From positions 1-55,743 of IMG/VR virus record IMGVR_UViG_3300020201_000023: 55,743 nt of DNA, one strand, 5' to 3'. Position numbers and translations under genes: made by a program. Below are positions 40,190-51,682 of this stretch, in pieces. This stretch comes from a virus. Its lineage: Duplodnaviria; Caudoviricetes. The notes under the pieces were generated by a model, which was not told the origin of the DNA, did not search any database, and was given only the letters and a program-made list of their open reading frames with translations. How positions within the stretch are numbered: the first letter of the stretch is position 1; every line of letters begins with the position of its first letter.

Positions 40190-41643
40190 GAAGCCGCGGG
40201 CGCCCCCCCGGACGCGGGCGTAGCAGGGGCCGCAGGCGTCGACGCTGCCGGAGTCGGCTCCGATGCGGACAGCGCCGAGAAGCCGTAGGCAGGCGCCGCC
40301 GTGGCGGGTACGTAGAACTGATCGCCGCCCTCGGCGAGAGGCGGGAGTCCGTTGCCCGCGAGCATCTGATCGTAAGTGACGCGGCCCGTCGCCGCGACAT
40401 GCGGCGTCACCGCGACGGCGTTGTCGAACACGCTCGCGATGACCGGCATCGGCACTGCCGGATCGAAGCGATTGTAGACCGCGATCGTGCGCGCGACGTC
40501 GCGAGTGAAACTCCCCCACATCAGCGTCGCGTCGAGCTCCGAGCCTTCGACGCGGATGCCGTCCTTGACCTCGTCGCTCGCGCGTGAGCCGTTCGGCCCG
40601 CTGCGCATCAGGTCGGGAGCGACGCCGATCGCCGTGGTAATCTCTTCGTTCGCCGCGTCACGCAGCGTCGACCAGATAGGCGTGCTGCCGCTGGCCTTCG
40701 GGTCATGCACCGTGAGCGTCGTCGCGCCGCTGAGCACAGCTACGGAGTCGGTCGTGATGCGCTGCGCGTCTTCGAGCAGTTCCTGCCGCTGCCCCTTCGT
40801 CGCGTCGGCGCTCGTCTGCACGACGAGCAGCGGATTACCGAAGCGCTCGGCCCCGATCAACCACATCGCCCAGCCGTTGATCTTGAACGCCCAGTAGTAG
40901 ATCGCCGCCTGGAACTCGCCCTGGTCCTGCGGACGCCCTTGCTCGGTCCACGGGATGTGCACGAGGAACCGCGCGCGCCTCTGCTCGGGCGTGTCGTCGC
41001 GGCAGTACGCCGGATCATCCTTCGAAGTCGTGACGGTGTTGATCCACGCGAGGTCGGCGTTTCTCACCGACAGCGTCCAGTCGCGCTCCCACCGCAGCTC
41101 GCGCGTGAGCACCTGCACAGGCGTCGGCAGCCATGCGCCCTTGCGCCGCTCCCATACGAGCTCGTGCACGGACACGCCCATGCCGACGGCGTCGAGCACG
41201 CGCATGAGCAGCGTCTCGAGGCCGTCGATGCCGACGAGCCAATCGGACATCATCTTCGCCAGGCGCTCGGCCTCCGCCTTGTGGCGCGGGTCCGTGTCCG
41301 GCGGCGCCTTGCACGTCCACGCGCGGCCCGCGACCGCGTTGCGCCGGATGCCGTATGCGCGCCTCACCGTGGGGTCGCGCTTCGCCTGCGTGATGAGGTC
41401 GGACCACATCTCGAGGCGGCCGAACTCGAGGTCACGCAGCGCCGCCGAAATGCGCGCAGGCGTGACGGGCTGTAGCGACTTGTTCGCGAGCTGATACAGG
41501 TCGCGCTGCCGCGTCACTTGACCGCGCGGCGCCTGCGCCTGCGTGACCTGTATGCCAGGCTGCGGCATCGGCTGCGCCTGGACAATGGCGAGCTTTGCCG
41601 GCGCAGTCGTGTGCGCGAGCGAGCGGCGGGCTTTGCGTGACAT
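40048..41643 (-). CDS. Portal protein (DUF935, Mu gp29-like)
   Basis: LDAVGMGVSVHELVW, FLVH, WLIGAERFGNP; follows terL. Confidence 0.88.
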   Translation of the reverse strand: MSRKARRSLAHTTAPAKLAIVQAQPMPQPGIQVTQAQAPRGQVTRQRDLYQLANKSLQPVTPARISAALRDLEFGRLEMWSDLITQAKRDPTVRRAYGIRRNAVAGRAWTCKAPPDTDPRHKAEAERLAKMMSDWLVGIDGLETLLMRVLDAVGMGVSVHELVWERRKGAWLPTPVQVLTRELRWERDWTLSVRNADLAWINTVTTSKDDPAYCRDDTPEQRRARFLVHIPWTEQGRPQDQGEFQAAIYYWAFKINGWAMWLIGAERFGNPLLVVQTSADATKGQRQELLEDAQRITTDSVAVLSGATTLTVHDPKASGSTPIWSTLRDAANEEITTAIGVAPDLMRSGPNGSRASDEVKDGIRVEGSELDATLMWGSFTRDVARTIAVYNRFDPAVPMPVIASVFDNAVAVTPHVAATGRVTYDQMLAGNGLPPLAEGGDQFYVPATAAPAYGFSALSASEPTPAASTPAAPATPASGGAPAASPFPTSPLSAGGMPALSTHTPTSPTSSLSPTSPRRFARVPRSAGPTS

Positions 41644-45192: not shown

Positions 45193-45404
45193 GCTCGCCT
45201 CCACGACGCTGTCAGCGGTTGACGCGCTTGCACGCATCCTCGCCGCTCGGGTCGCCTCCTGCACCGCGTGAGTGCCGGTGGGGTGGTTCGTCGCCCCTCG
45301 CCCGCCGGTCCACCCCCAGGGTAGAGTTATGCCCTAGCCGCGGCGGTATGTCTCGTGTCAGAACGCGCCATCCGTTGCCATCCGTTGCCATCTCATGCCG
45401 CGGG

Positions 45405-45569
45405 CTACTTGCGCGCCTTCCACATCGCGAGCCCCTTTTCGAGCAGATGCCGCACCGCATCCGCCTGCGTGAACTGGATTCCGTGCGCCGACTCCATGCC
45501 GACCCGGTGCGCCTCGATTCGAGAGAGCAGCTCCGCCGATACGCGCACGGTCACTTTTTGGTCGTTCAC
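45405..45569 (-). CDS. Ribbon-helix-helix protein (54 aa, not in the ORF track)
   Basis: Manual translation: MNDQKVTVRVSAELLSRIEAHRVGMESAHGIQFTQADAVRHLLEKGLAMWKARK. Confidence 0.7.
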   Translation of the reverse strand: MNDQKVTVRVSAELLSRIEAHRVGMESAHGIQFTQADAVRHLLEKGLAMWKARK

Positions 45570-45618
45570 TCGCTACCGCCTTTCGCGCATCGTACTACAC
45601 CCGCCGCGCCCGTCCGAT

Positions 45619-45843
45619 TGGTCCGCGCACCCGGTACTTGATCCGGATGCGCGGAGTACTTCCCTTGGTTCGCCTTGCCGCGCCGCGCCTAGCCCGGCCT
45701 TGCCACGCCCAGCCTAGCCCGGCCGCGCCTGGCCATGATTGGTCGCTGGCGGAAGCATTGAACCTCCGCCAGCGGTACTACCCTTGGTTCGCCTTGCCAC
45801 GCCTCGCCAGGCCTCGCCATGCCACACCACGCCAAGCCTCGCC
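45619..45843 (-). ncRNA. Putative guide-RNA block 3: arrays A6 (45789-45843, 11 pentamers) and A7 (45670-45734, 13 pentamers), each followed by a tRNA-like minihelix
   Basis: (GGY-NN)n plus GGCGAACCAAGGG; hairpins at 45740-45774 and 45619-45654. Confidence 0.8.
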
Positions 45844-46346
45844 TAGTCTTTCTTCTCGGGGAGTGCCGCCGGCACATCGACCGCGAGGAATTTGCGCTTG
45901 CGAACGAGCACGCTCAGCGCGCCGATCTTCGCCAACGAGTTCAGTTGCATCGCCGCCGCGCCGGCGTCGAGCTTGCTCCGGTCCACGTTCACGAGCAACG
46001 CCGCGCTCGACTTCATGCCCTTGCGCACGCTGCTCTCGAGTTTGTCGCGCCCGTGCGTGATCTGGTCCACCGGCGACAGGACTTCGTAGCCTTTGCCGGG
46101 CACGCTCTTGATGTCGATGTGGTGCTCGGTGAGCAGCGCGTTGCGCAGCCCGTCCATCTGCGAACAGTAGCGAAGCTCGAGCCGCTGATGGTCGGCTGAC
46201 GTGATGAGCTCGTCCGGCTTGGGCGTCCTGATCCGCAGTTGCGACCTCAGCCATTCGTGCGTGTAGATCGTCCCCGGCGAATGGTCGCCTTCGATGATGA
46301 TCTTCGCCACCGCAAGATAGTCCGGATAGAGTTCTGTGTCTGCCAT
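45843..46346 (-). CDS. Accessory protein of the repeat locus (winged-helix-like)
   Basis: RBS AGGAGG. LRNALLTEHHIDIKSVPGKGYEV resembles a wHTH recognition helix plus wing. Flanked by arrays. Confidence 0.75.
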   Translation of the reverse strand: MADTELYPDYLAVAKIIIEGDHSPGTIYTHEWLRSQLRIRTPKPDELITSADHQRLELRYCSQMDGLRNALLTEHHIDIKSVPGKGYEVLSPVDQITHGRDKLESSVRKGMKSSAALLVNVDRSKLDAGAAAMQLNSLAKIGALSVLVRKRKFLAVDVPAALPEKKD

Positions 46347-46377
46347 TCGCCGCCTCCTGTTGATTCGGACCCGTGTC

Positions 46378-46591
46378 CCCTTGGTTCGCCTCGCCAGGCC
46401 GTGCCACGCCTCGCCGCGCCCCGCCTCGCCCCGCCCTGCCGCGCCGTGCCCGGCCGCGCCTTGGCCGCCAGCGGAGGTATCGAGCCTCCGCTGGCGGGTA
46501 CTGCCCTTGGTTCGCCTTGCCTGTCCGCGCCACGCCAGACCTCGCCATGCCGCGCCTCGCCCCGCCGTGCCGAGCCTCGCCCAGCCTAGTC
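46378..46591 (-). ncRNA. Putative guide-RNA block 2: arrays A4 (46512-46586, 15 pentamers) and A5 (46386-46460, 15 pentamers) separated by a minihelix
   Basis: Same unit structure; hairpin at 46462-46496. Confidence 0.8.
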
Positions 46592-47164
46592 CTAGATCAC
46601 CTCGAACCGTCCGAAGCGCGGACGATACTGGCCGATCCCTTCGTATTGCCCCGCCGACTTCGCGTAGTCTCGGAGCTGCTCTTCACTCACCAGCGCCGGG
46701 TCGAAGAAGAGCGGACACGACACTTCCCACTCGGGGAAGACCGCACGCGTGCGCAGCAACGCACCGCCGCCGTTGTTCTTGATCGCGCGCTTGTCGACGT
46801 AGCGGCCTGACGCCCACATCGCCTCCAGCGTGCGCGGCCCATCGTACTTGATGGCGCACTTGTCATCGACGTTCTGGATCGCGCGGTTGACCGTCATGCC
46901 CATCTTCGTCAGCTTCGCGCCGTTGCGAATGCACCGCGTGATGTTCCACCCAGGGATGAAAGGGCCGACCTTGTCGTCGAAGCTCTGCGCCATCGCCATG
47001 CGCCATTCGATGTGCTGGATCTCGAGCTTCTGGTCGTCCGACTTCTTGCGGACGTCGGTGAGCTTTTTCAGCTCGCGCGAGATGGGGTGGAACGGGTCGA
47101 GTCCCACCGTGCCAGTCGGCATCATCGGCGCAGTCCCGCGAATCTTCAGCTGCATGATTTCCAT
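46592..47164 (-). CDS. RAMP / Cas7-like RNA-binding protein (candidate effector)
   Basis: N-terminal strand LKIRGTAPMM, PFIPGWNITRCIRNGA (cf. RAMP PxIPGSSLKGxLR), thumb region RTRAVFPEWEV, C-terminal G-rich loop GIGQYRPRFGRFEV. Confidence 0.8.
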   Translation of the reverse strand: MEIMQLKIRGTAPMMPTGTVGLDPFHPISRELKKLTDVRKKSDDQKLEIQHIEWRMAMAQSFDDKVGPFIPGWNITRCIRNGAKLTKMGMTVNRAIQNVDDKCAIKYDGPRTLEAMWASGRYVDKRAIKNNGGGALLRTRAVFPEWEVSCPLFFDPALVSEEQLRDYAKSAGQYEGIGQYRPRFGRFEVI

Positions 47165-47227
47165 GTGTCGTCTTCCTGTCCGCCCGTGAGGGCCATTGCG
47201 TTGTCCGTCCTACGTCGGCCCCATGGC

Positions 47228-47549
47228 CCCTTGGTTCGCGTTGCCGGGCCGGGCCCCGCCTCGCCAAGCCCGGCCACGCCGAGCCTCGATTGGCCGACGC
47301 GCGGGGTATTGAGCCCCACGCGCCGGGTGCTTCCCTTGGTTCGCCTGGCCAAGCCCGGCCCCGCCATGCCTCGCCACGCCCCGCTGCGCCAAGCCTCGCC
47401 GTGATTGGTCACCACCGCAGGTATTGAGCCCGCGGTGGCGATACTTCCCTTGCCTTGCCACGCCAGGCCCCGCCCGGCCGAGCCGTGCCCCGCCGTGCCC
47501 AGCCCAGCCCAGCCACGCCTCGCCATGCCACGCCGAGCCCTGCCACGCC
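47228..47549 (-). ncRNA. Putative guide-RNA block 1: arrays A1 (47450-47549, 20 pentamers), A2 (47341-47400, 12), A3 (47236-47285, 10) separated by minihelices
   Basis: Strict 5-nt period GGC-NN; hairpins at 47406-47440 and 47291-47325. Confidence 0.8.
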
Positions 47550-47565
47550 TCACTCCGACTCCAAC

Positions 47566-47594
47566 CATCTAGCGCGTCCGCGATGCGCCGTCAA
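47566..47594 (-). promoter_or_regulatory. sigma70-like promoter of the repeat/RAMP locus
   Basis: TTGACG-N17-TAGATG ending 16 bp upstream of the first pentamer. Confidence 0.6.
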
Positions 47595-47607
47595 GCGCGG
47601 CTGCATC

Positions 47608-48657
47608 TTATTTCGCAGATAGTACGACGCGCGCCCGAGGCACCGTGTCCGCCATCCGCCACGCATCGATCTCCGCGCGCACCGCTTCGACCGTCGAAGT
47701 GTGCCGGCGTTTTCGAACCGGCAGCGGGTCGACTTCCCGATCGGCGAGCCGGATGGCCGTGCGGTGCGATACCCGCGCGTAATCGGCGATTGCCTTCCAT
47801 CCGAAGAGATCCGTGAGCGGTCCATGAGACATCGTCGTGTACCTCCGGTCGAGCGGTACCAGCCCGCGCGAATGCAGCCGTGCAAACATCTCGCGCAGCC
47901 CCGAGCTTTGCAGCTCGGCGACGTGCGGCTCCGACACATGGCGGCCGAACACGCGCGAGGCGTGCGCGGCAACCTGCTCCAGTCCCGGCAGGTCGTACGG
48001 CTTGAACATGTCGCCGGCCTCGCGCGCCGGTCGGCCTCGCACTGACACGCGCGCCGCCGGCTTCTGCCGTGTCGGATCCCAGACGCCGCCGCCTTCGTTG
48101 CGCCCCTTGATCGCCGTGTGCGACTGCAACGGCGCGAAGTCGCCCTCGATGCCGAACACCGCCCAGAGCACGACTCGCCGCGCTTGGTCGCCGGTGAGCT
48201 CGAGCGTGGAAGTCGCGATCGTCGCGCACCAGCCCGAGGCGAACACGAGCGCCCAATCGCGTTCGACGAACACGACGCGTTCAGCCGCGCGCTGCCCTGC
48301 GTCGCCTACCGCCGTCGTCGACACGCAGCCGCCCGTTGCGTCGTCGCCAATCTTCCAGCACGACCTCAGCGGCGCCCCGTCGAGTCGCGTGTCGATGACG
48401 GCTTGGAGCGCCTGCCGCACGCCGCGGAACTCCGGGCGCGTGCTCTCTCCGCGCTGCTCGCGGCGCTTCATTGCGATCGCCTCGACGGTCGCGCGGTAGT
48501 TCTCCGCGTCGCACTCGGCGGCGCTCACCTCGCGATACGGAAGCGGAGCGAGCGACTCGGCGAGACGCGTCTCGAGGATGATGGACTCGACGTCGTCGAG
48601 CGCCGCCCCGTCGGTGAGCAGCGCCCGCACGTCCACGACCCATCGCGAGCGCGTCAC
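47608..48657 (-). CDS. Hypothetical protein with C-terminal HTH (possible late regulator)
   Basis: LFGWKAIADYARVSHRTAIRL...LPV...AEIDAW, an excisionase-like HTH; last gene of the replication operon. Confidence 0.6.
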   Translation of the reverse strand: MTRSRWVVDVRALLTDGAALDDVESIILETRLAESLAPLPYREVSAAECDAENYRATVEAIAMKRREQRGESTRPEFRGVRQALQAVIDTRLDGAPLRSCWKIGDDATGGCVSTTAVGDAGQRAAERVVFVERDWALVFASGWCATIATSTLELTGDQARRVVLWAVFGIEGDFAPLQSHTAIKGRNEGGGVWDPTRQKPAARVSVRGRPAREAGDMFKPYDLPGLEQVAAHASRVFGRHVSEPHVAELQSSGLREMFARLHSRGLVPLDRRYTTMSHGPLTDLFGWKAIADYARVSHRTAIRLADREVDPLPVRKRRHTSTVEAVRAEIDAWRMADTVPRARVVLSAK

Positions 48658-49586: not shown

Positions 49587-50515
49587 CGCTGCACCTCGGT
49601 TGCTTTCATGCTGTCGTCCATCAGCGCCACGCGCCGCGCGCGCCGCTCCTTGTCGAACGTCGCACGGTCGTACGCGAGCCCATTGCAACCGCGATACAAA
49701 GTCCACATGTGAAAGTCGGCGTTGTCGGCGAGACGCCTTGCGCGTGCGGCGACGCGGCGTGCGTGGCGGTTGGGCCAGCGCATCGGGTCGTCGACAATGA
49801 TGCGGCGCCGTTGGTTGGGCGCCGCCGACTGGGCCGCTATCCTCTCAGGCAGAGAAAGGCACGCCCATCTCACGACATCACCCGCTCGCGCTTCAGAGCC
49901 GCTCGATTGACGCGCGACAGCCGCATCGCCGGCACCGTGCGCCCCGCGCAGTTCCCCGGCTCGCGTTGCTCGGCCGCCGAGTTGCACGCTGATTGCGGCG
50001 TCCACTCAGCGCAGCCGACGCATGCCGCCGCGCTCACGACACCACCCAATCACTCGCCGCCGCCAAAACCTGCGCCTCCGCGTAGTCGTACTCTTCGACG
50101 ATGATGTCGCGCCGCCGCATTTCGTCGCGGTGCTCGGCTACGAGTTCCTCCGCCTCGCACGGCGGATACGTCACCCACGCATCGCACGCGACCGGCAGCG
50201 TGCGCACGACTTCGCCGCGTCCGCTCGCGAGCATCTGCACGGCGTCCTCTTCGGTCTCCGCGCGCACTTTGACCTCGACTACCTTGGTCTCGATTCGGTG
50301 CATCGTGTACGTGTTCATCGCGTCGCCTCCCTTCGCAGCGGACATTCTTGCGGCACGCCGCTCTCGGCTTCGGCGGCGTCGAGGAACCACGGCGAGCCGC
50401 AACCATCCATCATCGGGTGCACACACTCGTAATGTGGCGCGGTTCCCCGCCGAGCGCAGTAGTAGCAGCGCGTGCACGACTCGACGATCGGCAGTCTGCG
50501 CGGCGGCGTTGTCAC
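49583..50515 (-). CDS. Three hypothetical genes (49583-50005, 50034-50318, 50315-50515 Cys-rich)
   Basis: Coupled or RBS-supported ORFs. Confidence 0.5.
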
Positions 50516-50955
50516 TTCGTCCTCCGCTTGCTCGCGCGCGCATCCGGCAGCGCGTCGGTCTTCTTCGCGCGCGTGCGCTTCGGTTTGCCGAGCGGCTCGA
50601 ATATCCCGGTGACGTCCAGCACCTCGACGACCACGACAGGCCCGCGCGCATCCACGGGATACGACCTCACGCGGCCATCGCGTATCTGAGAATCGTCGAG
50701 ATACGCAATCCCGTTAATTGCGTCGGATACAATCTTCCCGCCGTTGTCCCAATCCCACCTGCGTGCGTCTGGCACGTAAACGCGCACGTCGAGCGATACC
50801 GCCCCCGTCAACAGCGGCACCCCCGCCGCTCGCGCAGCCGCTTGGACGACGCGCCGATACGCCGCACGGTCCGCGGCCGTGTACGTGTGTCCGCTCGCCG
50901 ATCGCTGCGCGCGCTTCCACGGCACGATGCGGCCCGGTACCGTGAACGTCGTCAC
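50512..50955 (-). CDS. rusA: RusA-family Holliday junction resolvase
   Basis: FTVPGRIVPWKR, DWDNGGKIVSDAINGIAYLDDSQI. Confidence 0.9.
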   Translation of the reverse strand: MTTFTVPGRIVPWKRAQRSASGHTYTAADRAAYRRVVQAAARAAGVPLLTGAVSLDVRVYVPDARRWDWDNGGKIVSDAINGIAYLDDSQIRDGRVRSYPVDARGPVVVVEVLDVTGIFEPLGKPKRTRAKKTDALPDARASKRRTK

Positions 50956-51682
50956 GCCGGCACCGTCTTGCGCGCCGCGTACTCCGCACGTGACCTGCCC
51001 TGCCGCGCCACTCGAGCGCACCGCGGACCGCAGTAGGCCGAGTGCCCCGCGCGCAGCGGGCGCAGGTACATCGTCCGGCAGCGCTTGCACGGCCGCGGCG
51101 GCTCGTCGCGCAGTTTGCCGCGCCACTCCGCCGACAGCGCGCCGACGTCGATCGGCGTCTCGCGCGCGACCGGCAGCGCTTTGCTGCATGTGCGCGACGC
51201 GAGCGGCCACGCCTTCGACGTGCCGCATCCGAGGCAGCGGACGATCGGCGCGCAGTCGTCTTCCGGCCCGAGTCGCCCGCCGTCTACCCACACGTGTCCG
51301 AGCTCGTCGCGTCTCATGTCGCCGCCTCCTTCGCCGCTCGCTTCGCCGCCGTTGCCGCTCGCTCTCGCTCGGCGTGCCTGACGTTCCACGCCTTCCGCGC
51401 GCACTCTGGCGCGCAGTACCGCGACGCGCCGTGCTTCGAATGATACTCCGCCGCGCACACGCCGCATACGCGATTCGGCACCGCGCCGACGACGATCGCC
51501 GCGAACGGCTTCCGCCACCGCGTGCTGCGCACCGCCTCCGCGTCGACTCGCTCTTCCGCCGCGATCGCCCCGCACTTCGCCTCCGCCTCCGGCCACGTCT
51601 TGCCGACGCCGCACGTCGCGCACACGTAGCGGCGCGTGCCGTCGTCCATCGTGCCGGCAGGCTCCCAGATGTGCTTGGTCAC
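50952..51682 (-). CDS. Two paralogous zinc-finger proteins (50952-51317, 51314-51682)
   Basis: Both follow HxW...CxxCGxxKxWPxAxxxC...CxxC...YCxPxCAR. Confidence 0.65.

What the first reader, a model, noticed from the sequence alone, without database searches (positions are those of the whole stretch)
45670..47549. Decoded variable dinucleotides give seven testable gapped target patterns
NN strings read 5'->3' on the minus strand, with the terminal AA/GA units belonging to the constant 3' end. A1: GT AG TC GT AT GA GT TG TG TG AC GG AC TC CG GG CT GT AA AA. A2: GA TT GC GG GT GA AT GG CG TT CA GA. A3: TC GT CG TT GA GG CC CC AA GA. A4: TG GA TC AC GG GA GC AT GA CT GT GC CA AA GA. A5: GC CG AC GC AG GG GA GG GC GA GT AC CT GA GA. 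A6: GA TT GT GT AT GA CT GA GT AA GA. A7: CA GC CG TA TG GT AA CG TA GC GC AA GA. Inference: if each NN pairs with two target bases and one base is skipped (my recollection of the VIPR rule), the skip can fall on codon wobble positions. Several then read as plausible peptides, for example A6 DFVVIDLEV, A4 WDSTGEAIELVA, A5 ARTASGDGAEVTL, A7 QARYWVNRYAA. Such guides would resist synonymous escape. I found no full self-match by eye, but the search was not exhaustive.
Basis: inference. Interest (0 to 1): 0.8.

Follow-up and report, generated by a model that had tools for sequence, protein, structure and literature searches.

The report
Phage VIPR guide RNAs, decoded

Summary
They flank a 190-aa gene homologous over its full length to the solved SUSP1 Vipr protein (E 4.6e-24) and a vap gene of the same PHROG as the SUSP2 gene next to vipr. 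This is a VIPR locus, a kind published in 2026. The one-base-skip rule and the wobble/synonymous-escape idea are already in print.

The proposed test found no target. There was no match above shuffled controls at gaps 0-3 in the phage itself, in a related VIPR phage or in 69 Vipr loci. Exact one-base-skip scans of IMG/VR and JGI metagenomes gave nothing beyond chance.

A4's best hits (21-23 of 26, a primase-helicase) and A6's (a DNA polymerase motif) are at chance level for databases of this size. A3 and A6 are too short to test database-wide.

Base composition of the NN units modestly favours codon positions 1-2.

This scan has decoded VIPR arrays before on other DNA.

The parts
47566..47594 (-). 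Candidate promoter upstream of array A1 (TTGACG, 17 nt, TAGATG), seen by eye only
   Evidence: Read. The consensus scan found no promoter-like site in 45200-48000 because the -10 hexamer lacks the final T. In L070 a TTGACA-17-TATCAT stands at the same relative place. Inference only.
47450..47549 (-). vrRNA A1 repeat tract: 20 GGC-NN units, 18 variable plus AA AA
47401..47449 (-). A1 tail. The 12-bp hairpin with 7-nt loop plus ACCA lies at 47440-47406.
47341..47400 (-). vrRNA A2 repeat tract: 12 units (the 4th has an AGC scaffold), 10 variable plus CA GA
47286..47340 (-). A2 tail. The hairpin plus GCCA lies at 47325-47291.
47236..47285 (-). vrRNA A3 repeat tract: 10 units (the last has a CGC scaffold), 8 variable plus AA GA. 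It is followed by a short tail, ACCAAGG plus a 4-bp tetraloop hairpin, and then the vipr ribosome-binding site.
   Evidence: Short-tail hairpins compared by eye with L070.
46592..47164 (-). vipr gene, 190 aa (P0001), a Cas7-like RAMP
   Evidence: phrog_4652 E 7.9e-42. PDB 36pp_D 'SUSP1 Vipr protein' E 4.6e-24 for the single sequence and 4.4e-60 for the family profile. AlphaFold2 pLDDT 96.9. Foldseek top hits are Csm3/Cas7 chains. 1955 cluster representatives at E <= 0.001.
46512..46586 (-). vrRNA A4 repeat tract: 15 units (13th GGA, 10th GGT), 13 variable plus AA GA
46461..46511 (-). A4 tail. The hairpin plus GCCA lies at 46496-46462.
46386..46460 (-). vrRNA A5 repeat tract: 15 units, 13 variable plus GA GA. 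It is followed by a short tail (ACCAAGGGGACACGGGTCC) and the vap ribosome-binding site.
   Evidence: The same short-tail letters follow array B5 in L070.
45843..46346 (-). vap gene, 167 aa (P0002), same family as the gene downstream of vipr in SUSP2 and LESphi2
   Evidence: phrog_5926 E 4.8e-16. The SUSP2 and LESphi2 neighbours are also phrog_5926. BLASTP gives E 8e-15 to LESphi2 and 8e-6 to SUSP2. It is 57% identical to the L070 homologue. The fold model was unusable, pLDDT 40.6.
45789..45843 (-). vrRNA A6 repeat tract: 11 units, 9 variable plus AA GA. It starts on the last base of the vap stop codon.
45735..45788 (-). A6 tail. The hairpin plus ACCA lies at 45774-45740.
45670..45734 (-). vrRNA A7 repeat tract: 13 units, 11 variable plus AA GA
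45612..45669 (-). A7 tail. The hairpin (8-nt loop) plus ACCA lies at 45654-45619.

Best explanation
The stretch is a VIPR (Viral Interference Programmable Repeat) locus of an uncultured 69% G+C phage from microbial mats. Its gene order is three vrRNAs, vipr, two vrRNAs, vap, two vrRNAs, all on the minus strand.

By homology to the characterised SUSP1 system, one Vipr protomer binds each GGC-NN unit. It buries the GGC and presents the NN. The filament pairs the NN with two target-DNA bases, flips out every third target base, and grows the R-loop from the tail towards the 5' end. The result is transcriptional silencing of the bound gene.

Their natural targets are most likely genes of rival phages, satellites or prophages of the same unknown host, read in codon register. 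Those targets are not in the collections I could search.

Shown here: the arrays, the decoding, the Vipr and vap homology, the conserved structured tails, and the lack of self-targets. Inferred: expression, the one-base-skip rule in this clade, and the kind of target.
For: Arrays and decoding:
- 7 of 7 strict GGY-NN runs lie on one strand around the gene and none elsewhere in the window.

Vipr:
- Full-length match to PDB 36pp_D 'SUSP1 Vipr protein', E 4.6e-24 single sequence and 4.4e-60 family profile.
- Confident Cas7-like model, pLDDT 96.9; top Foldseek hits are Csm3 chains.
- In the alignment, the SUSP1 residues that cryo-EM and mutagenesis tie to the gapped code are kept: K33, R39, R138 (here R140), R179 (R181), K82 (K84) and G87 (G89). 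W178 is Tyr here (Y180).

vap:
- Same PHROG as the SUSP2 and LESphi2 neighbours of vipr (BLASTP).

Phage context:
- Portal, large terminase, protease and DnaB-like helicase are present, and the record is a virus record.

Related locus L070 (Vipr 73% identical, in a complete 197,921-bp phage genome):
- It has the same vipr-vap synteny, GGY scaffold and tails.
- Its NN strings are wholly different.

Tail hairpin:
- 12 pairs, 96.4% of 84 cells paired, 10 of 12 pairs with changes on both sides, 0 of 500 shuffles as high.

No self-target:
- Best one-base-skip matches in the window are 0.56-0.78 of NN positions. 43-100 of 100 shuffles did as well. The same holds inside the locus. This is as the paper reports for its own systems.

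NN base composition (82 variable units):
- G is 50% at N1 against 26% at N2 (Fisher p 0.002). G+C is 67% and 50%, against 84% at codon position 3 of this phage's genes.
- The units fit codon positions 1-2 by +10.0 bits over genome dinucleotides. Registers that include the wobble base score -13 to -39.5 bits.
- With the best phase chosen per guide, skip 1 sums to +15.1 bits, against +8.0 (skip 0 or 3) and +7.7 (skip 2).
Against: - No natural target was found for any of the seven guides at any gap size. The central functional claim therefore rests on homology alone.
- There are no RNA data. The runs that hold this DNA are DNA contigs.
- Two SUSP1 residues that read the first G of GGY, H17 and D177, are Thr17 and Gln179 here and in the two closest relatives.
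- The tail is a 12-bp hairpin ending in NCCA, not the SUSP1 pseudoknot. I did not test whether a pseudoknot can form.
- The composition support for skip 1 over other gaps is only about 7 bits in the window. It is absent in L070 (+8.9 against +8.8).
- Vipr is only about 30% identical to SUSP1 Vipr.
Confidence: 0.75

Rival explanations
1. Motif-directed guides. The guides do not spell one rival genome. They spell family-wide conserved motifs of replication enzymes. A4 would spell the helix after the zinc ribbon of a Toprim primase-helicase. A6 would spell the metal-binding strand (motif A) of a DNA polymerase. One guide would then silence many diverged rivals.
For: - A4 units 5-13 hit three homologous ORFs of about 680 aa in IMG/VR (L076, L078, L080). 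The hits are in frame with the skipped base at the wobble position, and the full-guide NN match is 21, 22 and 23 of 26.
- These ORFs carry Toprim_3 plus AAA_25 and match primase/helicase PHROGs.
- The full A6 pattern hits, in frame, the stretch EFVVIDLDVSSYYP of a DNA polymerase (phrog_1252, E 3.1e-110) in L071 and L075.
- Earlier notes of this scan read other VIPR arrays the same way (e1-5900215, e1-5874057; unchecked by me).
Against: - The hits are at chance level. Four 18-base scans gave 5, 6, 0 and 1 loci. A match of at least 21 of 26 is expected once per 2.6e8 positions.
- The one hit of the shuffled control is also in frame at codon position 1 of a 212-aa ORF. Being in frame is therefore what the codon-like NN composition gives by itself.
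- The three primase hits are one family and count as one event. Only 16 proteins share the region in 5.8 billion clusters. The motif varies within them, and the best has 11 of 13 compatible residues.
- The hit contigs have 31-53% G+C, against 69% for this phage.
- No other guide hits those loci.
- None of the A6 hits continues into the constant units.
- Only 1 of 3 distinct A6 hits has the skip at the wobble position.
Confidence: 0.12
2. Other pairing rule. This Vipr clade reads its targets with a gap other than one base (contiguous, two or three), so the one-base-skip patterns are the wrong queries.
For: - H17 and D177 of SUSP1 Vipr are replaced in this clade.
- No one-base-skip target was found in any collection.
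- In L070 the composition test does not separate skip 1 from skip 0.
Against: - The residues that hold the single flipped target base and its backbone in SUSP1 (K33, the thumb R138) are conserved.
- Local scans at gaps 0, 2 and 3 found nothing above shuffles either. The one exception, A5 at gap 3 (21 of 26), lies in G+C-rich portal coding sequence.
- In the window's guides the composition test favours skip 1 by about 7 bits.
- The N1/N2 asymmetry (G 50% against 26%) is not expected if the NN tile all three codon positions.
Confidence: 0.08
3. The targets are in the host chromosome (defence genes, or repeated decoy sites as described for satellite solo vrRNAs) and not in rival mobile elements.
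For: - The paper on SUSP1 satellites reports vrRNAs aimed at host REP elements (abstract; section 8).
- Earlier notes of this scan report guides that match defence genes (e1-5900215; unchecked).
- The host is unknown, so its genome could not be searched.
Against: - For phage-borne type II systems the published natural targets are satellites and prophages: 18 of 20 and 48 of 66.
- A4 with up to 3 mismatches was found in 0 of 401 genomes of one bacterial class and in 0 of 5 handles. That is a tiny sample, and only one guide was tried.
Confidence: 0.12
4. The arrays are decaying or unused copies, so the NN strings have no targets.
For: - Some scaffolds are degenerate (AGC, CGC, GGA).
- No target was found.
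Against: - vipr and vap are intact.
- The tails keep a hairpin through compensatory changes.
- The GGY scaffold is kept in 92 of 96 units.
- The related phage keeps the same layout with different NN.
- The paper notes frequent internal degeneracy in working vrRNAs.
Confidence: 0.04

Closest known systems
Type II VIPR systems of Escherichia phage SUSP1 and the Pseudomonas fulva prophage (bioRxiv 10.64898/2026.04.26.720920; structures in 10.64898/2026.04.26.720927, PDB 36pp)
   Same: - Homologous Vipr over the full length.
- vap of the same PHROG as in SUSP2.
- GGY-NN arrays both upstream and downstream of the genes, each capped by a constant structured 3' tail.
- Phage-borne.
- No self-target.
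   Different: - About 30% protein identity.
- Two extra vrRNAs sit between vipr and vap.
- The scaffold is almost always GGC (GGT in SUSP2).
- Guides have up to 18 variable units, against 9-16 repeats reported.
- The tail is a 12-bp hairpin plus NCCA, or a short tetraloop hairpin, in place of the SUSP1 pseudoknot.
- H17 and D177 are replaced.
- The host is unknown and no target is known.
Cas7-family backbone subunits of class 1 CRISPR effectors (Csm3, Cmr4)
   Same: RRM-based RAMP fold with a glycine-rich loop (GIGQYRPRFGRF at the C-terminus) and a thumb. The top 10 Foldseek PDB hits are all chains of type III-A Csm complexes, E 2e-6 to 2e-5.
   Different: - TM-scores are only 0.4-0.58 and identity 9-16%.
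- There is no CRISPR array and there are no other cas genes.
- The guide is read two bases in five, not five in six.
Solo vrRNAs and vrRNAs aimed at relatives' VIPR loci (bioRxiv 10.64898/2026.10.15.759431)
   Same: Same guide grammar. I used the same scanning method: identity over informative positions against a shuffled-guide null.
   Different: Here every vrRNA lies beside vipr. None matches its own locus, the vipr, vap or arrays of L070, or 69 other Vipr loci.
Hammerhead-ribozyme-interspersed VIPR arrays (types I and V; fig. S19 legend of 10.64898/2026.04.26.720920, seen as a passage)
   Same: A structured RNA element between successive guides of one transcript, presumably marking the processing site.
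   Different: - Here the element is not a ribozyme known to Rfam (0 matches at E <= 1).
- It looks like a tRNA acceptor/T-arm minihelix with NCCA. That would call for host tRNA-processing enzymes. This is inference and was not tested.

Membership tests
VIPR system | Vipr protein: a minimal RAMP homologous to SUSP1 Vipr, with G-loop and thumb | tested here: met
   PDB 36pp_D E 4.6e-24 over residues 1-189. Family profile E 4.4e-60. pLDDT 96.9. Csm3/Cas7 are the top structural matches. The C-terminal GIGQYRPRFGRF loop is invariant in relatives.
VIPR system | vrRNA genes: tandem GGY-NN pentamers (at least 4 units) with constant GGY and variable NN, next to vipr | tested here: met
   Seven arrays of 10-20 units. 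The related locus L070 keeps GGY and changes every NN string.
VIPR system | Invariant structured 3' tail after each repeat tract | tested here: met
   Five long tails plus two from L070 align. The 12-bp helix has 10 of 12 covarying pairs and 0 of 500 shuffles as high. Two arrays (A3, A5) have a short hairpin tail instead. The SUSP1-type pseudoknot was not tested.
VIPR system | GGY-binding and skip-base residues of Vipr as defined by cryo-EM and mutagenesis (H17, D177, R138, W178, R179, K33, R39, K82) | tested here: inconclusive
   From the alignment, read: K33, R39, R140, R181 and K84 are kept. W178 is Tyr180. H17 is Thr17 and D177 is Gln179, also in P0003 and P0004.
VIPR system | vrRNAs are expressed and co-purify with Vipr | not testable with these tools
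   Only DNA contigs hold this stretch.
VIPR system | Guides match natural targets by the one-base-skip rule (at least 80% NN match), mostly coding sequence with the skip at the wobble position | tested here: not met
   No match above chance. The search was exact-match only in the large collections, and the host is unknown, so this is absence of evidence. NN composition modestly fits codon positions 1-2.
VIPR system | No self-targeting on the source contig | tested here: met
VIPR type II | vap1-type accessory gene next to vipr | tested here: met
   P0002, the SUSP2 neighbour and the LESphi2 neighbour are all phrog_5926. Pairwise E 8e-6 and 8e-15.
VIPR type II | Position in the Vipr phylogeny used for typing | not tested
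I call the locus 'type II-like' by inference only.
tRNA-like minihelix (acceptor stem plus T arm, NCCA end) | 12 stacked pairs, a 7-nt loop with a T-loop-like TCRA, then one unpaired base and CCA | tested here: inconclusive
   The 12-bp helix is supported. The loop has 7 nt in 4 of 5 window tails and 8 in A7. TCRA and NCCA are present in 7 of 7 aligned tails. ARAGORN finds no tRNA in the window and Rfam finds no match. Cleavage by RNase P or RNase Z is not testable here. The T-loop consensus is recalled, not taken from a call.

The most novel reading that the evidence does not exclude
The guides are aimed at family-wide catalytic or zinc-ribbon motifs of replication enzymes, not at one rival genome. 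A4 would target a Toprim primase-helicase and A6 motif A of a DNA polymerase, both read in codon register. A single vrRNA would then silence whole families of rival replicons, however far their synonymous sites have drifted.
Probability: 0.1. Interest if true: 0.6.

Novelty: new member of a known kind. Interest (0 to 1): 0.3.

Why it matters
The locus adds a well-delimited VIPR system from a high-G+C, uncultured microbial-mat phage lineage. Its large terminase is at most 28% identical to that of any deposited phage. Seven guides are defined to the base, and a sister locus carries the same scaffold with other guides.

The locus is useful in three ways:
- It is a test case for whether the one-base-skip code holds in a clade that has replaced two of the guanine-reading residues.
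- It is a worked example of how little a short vrRNA can say in a database-wide search.
- Its tails suggest a guide-processing route through tRNA-like hairpins that the three VIPR preprints do not mention.

It does not change what is known about how VIPR works, and it gives no new target biology.

Tried and rejected
Host identification failed:
- The large terminase and the DnaB-like helicase gave only viral clusters in the ESM Atlas.
- The large terminase is at most 28% identical to any deposited phage.
- No species-representative genome holds a Vipr more than 39% identical.
- The runs only say 'microbial mat metagenome'.

Target searches that found nothing:
- Viral contigs, exact, one-base skip: A7 full, A2 full, A1 units 9-18, A5 units 5-13.
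- Metagenome contigs: A4 full, A1 units 8-18.
- The genome search: A4 with up to 3 mismatches in 0 of 5 handles and 0 of 401 genomes.
- The complete L070 phage genome (G005): A1, A5, A7 and A2 with up to 3 mismatches and A6 with up to 2 gave 0.
- Cross-scans between the window and L070, and against 69 Vipr loci (472,587 bases), at gaps 0-3 stayed at shuffle level.
- The other six guides on the primase loci stayed at shuffle level, except A7 on L076 at 16 of 22, reached by 3 of 100 shuffles.

Searches not run:
- A3 was not searched in any large collection, because 16 informative bases are too few.
- Gaps 0, 2 and 3 were not searched in the large collections.

Hits considered and rejected as chance:
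- A6 hits L071-L075.
- A4 hits L076-L081.
- A5 at gap 3, 21 of 26, at 40232-40293.

Other dead ends:
- There is no primase-type motif in the window's long ORFs, and Pfam names nothing but RusA in ten neighbouring ORFs. A 'recoded own copy' reading, as in earlier notes, finds no support here.
- The vap fold model was unusable (pLDDT 40.6, two-row alignment), so no fold search was made.
- The consensus scan found no promoter or terminator.
- Rfam and ARAGORN found nothing.
- Read laying at 80% likeness mostly laid other GGC-NN arrays of the mats on this one. The fact that differences fall on NN positions is therefore by construction and is not evidence of in-place variation.
Data S3 and S4 and table S3 of 10.64898/2026.04.26.720920 may list this clade or its type.


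Full report
WHAT IS THERE

On the minus strand of window 45612-47594 lies a compact locus. A strict search for four or more GG[CT]NN units finds seven runs in the whole 55,743-base window. All seven are here and on this strand, and there are none on the plus strand. Tandem Repeats Finder reports the same places.

Allowing three degenerate scaffolds, the arrays have 20, 12, 10, 15, 15, 11 and 13 units. No other array or tail motif exists in the window.

The layout is: A1, A2, A3, then a 190-aa gene (47164-46592), A4, A5, then a 167-aa gene (46346-45843), A6, A7. High G+C makes ORF lists noisy. Several listed ORFs simply read through the arrays.

WHAT IT IS

The 190-aa protein (P0001):
- It has no Pfam family but belongs to phrog_4652.
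- It has 1955 cluster representatives at E <= 0.001 among 1.84 billion.
- It matches, end to end, the solved 'SUSP1 Vipr protein' (PDB 36pp_D), at E 4.6e-24 alone and 4.4e-60 as a 78-sequence profile.
- Its AlphaFold2 model is confident (pLDDT 96.9). The nearest solved folds in the Foldseek library are Csm3/Cas7 backbone subunits.

The 167-aa protein (P0002):
- It falls in phrog_5926, as do the genes just downstream of vipr in phage SUSP2 and in Pseudomonas phage LESphi2.
- Pairwise E-values are 8e-6 and 8e-15.

The rest of the window encodes a portal, a large terminase, a head protease, a DnaB-like helicase and a methyltransferase. The record is a virus record.

This is therefore a VIPR locus as defined in bioRxiv 10.64898/2026.04.26.720920. 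For that paper I read the outline, both parts of Results, Methods sections 18, 20, 26 and 27, and passages found by term. I call the locus type II-like because of the vap family. The typing tree is in supplements I could not open.

COMPARATIVE SUPPORT

The closest relative I could fetch is L070, whose Vipr is 73% identical. It sits in a complete 197,921-bp phage genome with terminal repeats.
- It has the same vipr-vap order and five vrRNAs with the same GGY scaffold and the same two kinds of tail.
- Its NN strings are entirely different.
- Two of its arrays carry a one-base register slip.

The five long tails of the window and two of L070 align. They share a 12-bp helix:
- 96.4% of 84 cells are paired.
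- 10 of 12 pairs change on both sides.
- 0 of 500 shuffles reach the covariation score.
- Slid registers drop to 31-48% paired.
- The helix appears in every minimum-energy fold of the five full vrRNAs.

HOW IT MOST LIKELY WORKS

The mechanism is known from SUSP1. I read Results of 10.64898/2026.04.26.720927:
- One Vipr protomer binds per repeat.
- The GGY is flipped into protein pockets and the NN is presented.
- Target DNA is paired two bases in three, with the third base held between thumb and helical bundle.
- The R-loop grows from the tail-proximal units towards the 5' end.
- The outcome is transcriptional repression.

In the alignment, the residues for the skipped base and the second G and Y pockets are kept (K33, R39, R140, Y180 for W178, R181, K84, G89). 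The two residues that read the first G (H17, D177) are Thr17 and Gln179, as in the two closest relatives. The scaffold is nevertheless still GGC. The rule is thus inferred for this clade, not shown.

(a) Own genome
With the locus masked, the best one-base-skip matches cover 0.56-0.78 of NN positions. They are equalled by 43-100 of 100 shuffled-order guides. Of 28 guide-by-gap tests, only A5 at gap 3 beat all shuffles (21 of 26), and it lies in G+C-rich portal coding sequence. Inside the locus nothing stands out either.

(b) Relatives
Window guides against L070, L070 guides against the window, and window guides against 69 Vipr-bearing genome loci (472,587 bases) at gaps 0-3 were all at shuffle level. 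None of A1, A2, A4, A5 or A7 (up to 3 mismatches) or A6 (up to 2) occurs in the complete L070 genome.

(c) IMG/VR (exact, one-base skip)

| Query | Result |
|---|---|
| A6 full (18 bases) | 5 loci, 3 distinct sequences |
| A7 full (22 bases) | 0 |
| A2 full (20 bases) | 0 |
| A1 units 9-18 | 0 |
| A4 units 5-13 | 6 loci |
| A5 units 5-13 | 0 |
| Shuffled A4 seed | 1 locus |

(d) JGI metagenomes
A4 full gave 0. A1 units 8-18 gave 0.

(e) Bacterial genomes
A4 with up to 3 mismatches was found in 0 of 401 genomes of one bacterial class.

I chose tail-proximal seeds because pairing starts there.

ARE THE A6 AND A4 HITS REAL?

The A6 hits:
- The contigs have 31-49% G+C.
- None continues into the constant units.
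- Only one of the three distinct sequences has the skipped base at the wobble position. That one is the motif EFVVIDLDVSSYYP of a DNA polymerase.

The A4 hits:
- Three are homologous Toprim_3 plus AAA_25 primase-helicases. The motif GDAIDLVAQ is in frame, and the full-guide match is 21-23 of 26.
- The other three hits are unrelated.

This looks attractive, but it is what chance gives:
- The four 18-base scans returned 5, 6, 0 and 1 loci. The collection therefore behaves like roughly 2e11 positions. This is my arithmetic's 6.9e10 positions per chance hit.
- A match of at least 21 of 26 is expected once per 2.6e8 positions.
- The shuffled control's only hit is also in frame at codon position 1.
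- The primase family is small (16 proteins), varies at the motif, and reaches at most 11 of 13 compatible residues.
- No perfect A4 site exists in the metagenome collection.

I keep the motif reading as a 10-12% possibility.

INFORMATION CONTENT

Information per guide is 72 (A1), 52 (A4, A5), 44 (A7), 40 (A2), 36 (A6) and 32 bits (A3). In half a megabase, A2 and A3 already reach 80% and 88% by chance. Only A1, A4 and A5, and marginally A7 and A2, can be tested database-wide. 'Seven testable patterns' is too generous.

AN INDEPENDENT LOOK AT THE WOBBLE IDEA

The 82 variable units are G-rich at N1 (50%) and not at N2 (26%; Fisher p 0.002). G+C is 67% at N1 and 50% at N2. This phage's genes have 67%, 56% and 84% G+C at codon positions 1, 2 and 3.

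Against codon-position dinucleotide tables from nine of its genes:
- The units fit positions 1-2 in sense by +10.0 bits over genome dinucleotides.
- Registers that include the wobble base score -13 to -39.5 bits.
- L070's 64 units give +9.0 (sense) and +5.2 (antisense), against about -20 for the other registers.

Letting every guide choose its best phase and strand at each gap:
- Skip 1 sums to +15.1 bits, against +8.0 for skip 0 or 3 and +7.7 for skip 2, in the window.
- It gives +8.9 against +8.8 in L070.

The support is therefore real but modest. It could also reflect constraints on the RNA itself. A2, A4, A5, A6 and A7 read best in sense, and A1 and A3 in antisense.

COMPARISON WITH WHAT IS KNOWN

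Everything central is already published: the pentamer grammar, the one-base skip, wobble skipping as a bar to synonymous escape, rival elements as targets, and no self-targets. The third preprint, 10.64898/2026.10.15.759431 (abstract and sections 8 and 17 read), uses the same scan and nulls that I used.

What differs here:
- The lineage.
- vrRNAs between vipr and vap.
- Long guides.
- The replaced G1-reading residues.
- The tails.

The long tails look like a tRNA acceptor/T-arm minihelix: 12 pairs, a loop containing TCRA, then N-CCA in 7 of 7. The words tRNA, RNase P and minihelix occur 0 times in the held text of all three VIPR preprints. The first of these describes hammerhead-interspersed arrays as another architecture. 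I did not run a library-wide search for this, and processing cannot be tested here.

VERDICT

This is a new member of a known kind. That coverage is partial: exact matches only in the large collections, one gap size there, and an unknown host.

This scan has decoded VIPR arrays before in other genomes.

Noticed in passing
window 47440-47406, 47325-47291, 46496-46462, 45774-45740, 45654-45619 (minus strand): Five of the seven vrRNA tails are 12-bp hairpins with a loop containing TCRA. One unpaired base and CCA follow, like a tRNA acceptor/T-arm minihelix, and the next guide starts 1-5 bases later. This suggests processing by host tRNA-maturation enzymes. The three VIPR preprints never mention tRNA, RNase P or minihelix in their held text.
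   Followed up: partly
window 47235-47200 and 46385-46360; L070 9968-9990, 10940-10960, 11534-11555: There is a second, short tail class on vrRNAs that directly precede a gene...AAGG followed by a 4-bp stem with a tetraloop. The stems are GGCC/GGCC, GGAC/GTCC and GTCC/GGAC, so they covary by eye. The A5 tail letters recur after L070 array B5.
   Followed up: no
P0001 residues 17 and 179 (window 47116-47114 and 46630-46628): The two SUSP1 Vipr residues that hydrogen-bond the first G of GGY (H17, D177) are Thr and Gln in P0001, P0003 and P0004. More distant relatives keep His and Asp or Glu. The scaffold is still GGC.
   Followed up: partly
window 45300-45820, runs X2 and X4: One contig in X4 (record 24) matches the downstream flank 45300-45595 with 4 differences. 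One contig in X2 (record 9) matches 45514-45595 with none. Both carry other GCC-NN letters where A7 and A6 lie. X2 also holds pieces identical to A1-A3. This hints at strains of one phage with exchanged guides. It comes from contigs at 80% likeness, so it is a hint only.
   Followed up: partly
runs X1-X4: Many short contigs of the same mats lay on the arrays at under 90% likeness and run on into other GCC-NN repeats. These communities therefore hold many different GGC-NN arrays.
   Followed up: no
L070 10798-10800 and 11512-11514: Two arrays of the related phage carry one extra base inside the repeat tract (GGCGG-C-GGCCA and GGCTG-T-GGCTA). This shifts the pentamer register mid-guide.
   Followed up: no
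L070 9875-10000; window 45778-46548 and 47146-47568: Gene callers read through the arrays. The database protein P0003 has a 42-residue N-terminal extension that is the upstream vrRNA. The window's ORF list has 256-aa and 140-aa ORFs that run across arrays.
   Followed up: no
window 50512-51291 (minus strand): There is a RusA-family Holliday-junction resolvase domain (PF05866, E 1.7e-14) upstream of the locus. The nine other neighbouring ORFs tested have no Pfam family.
   Followed up: no
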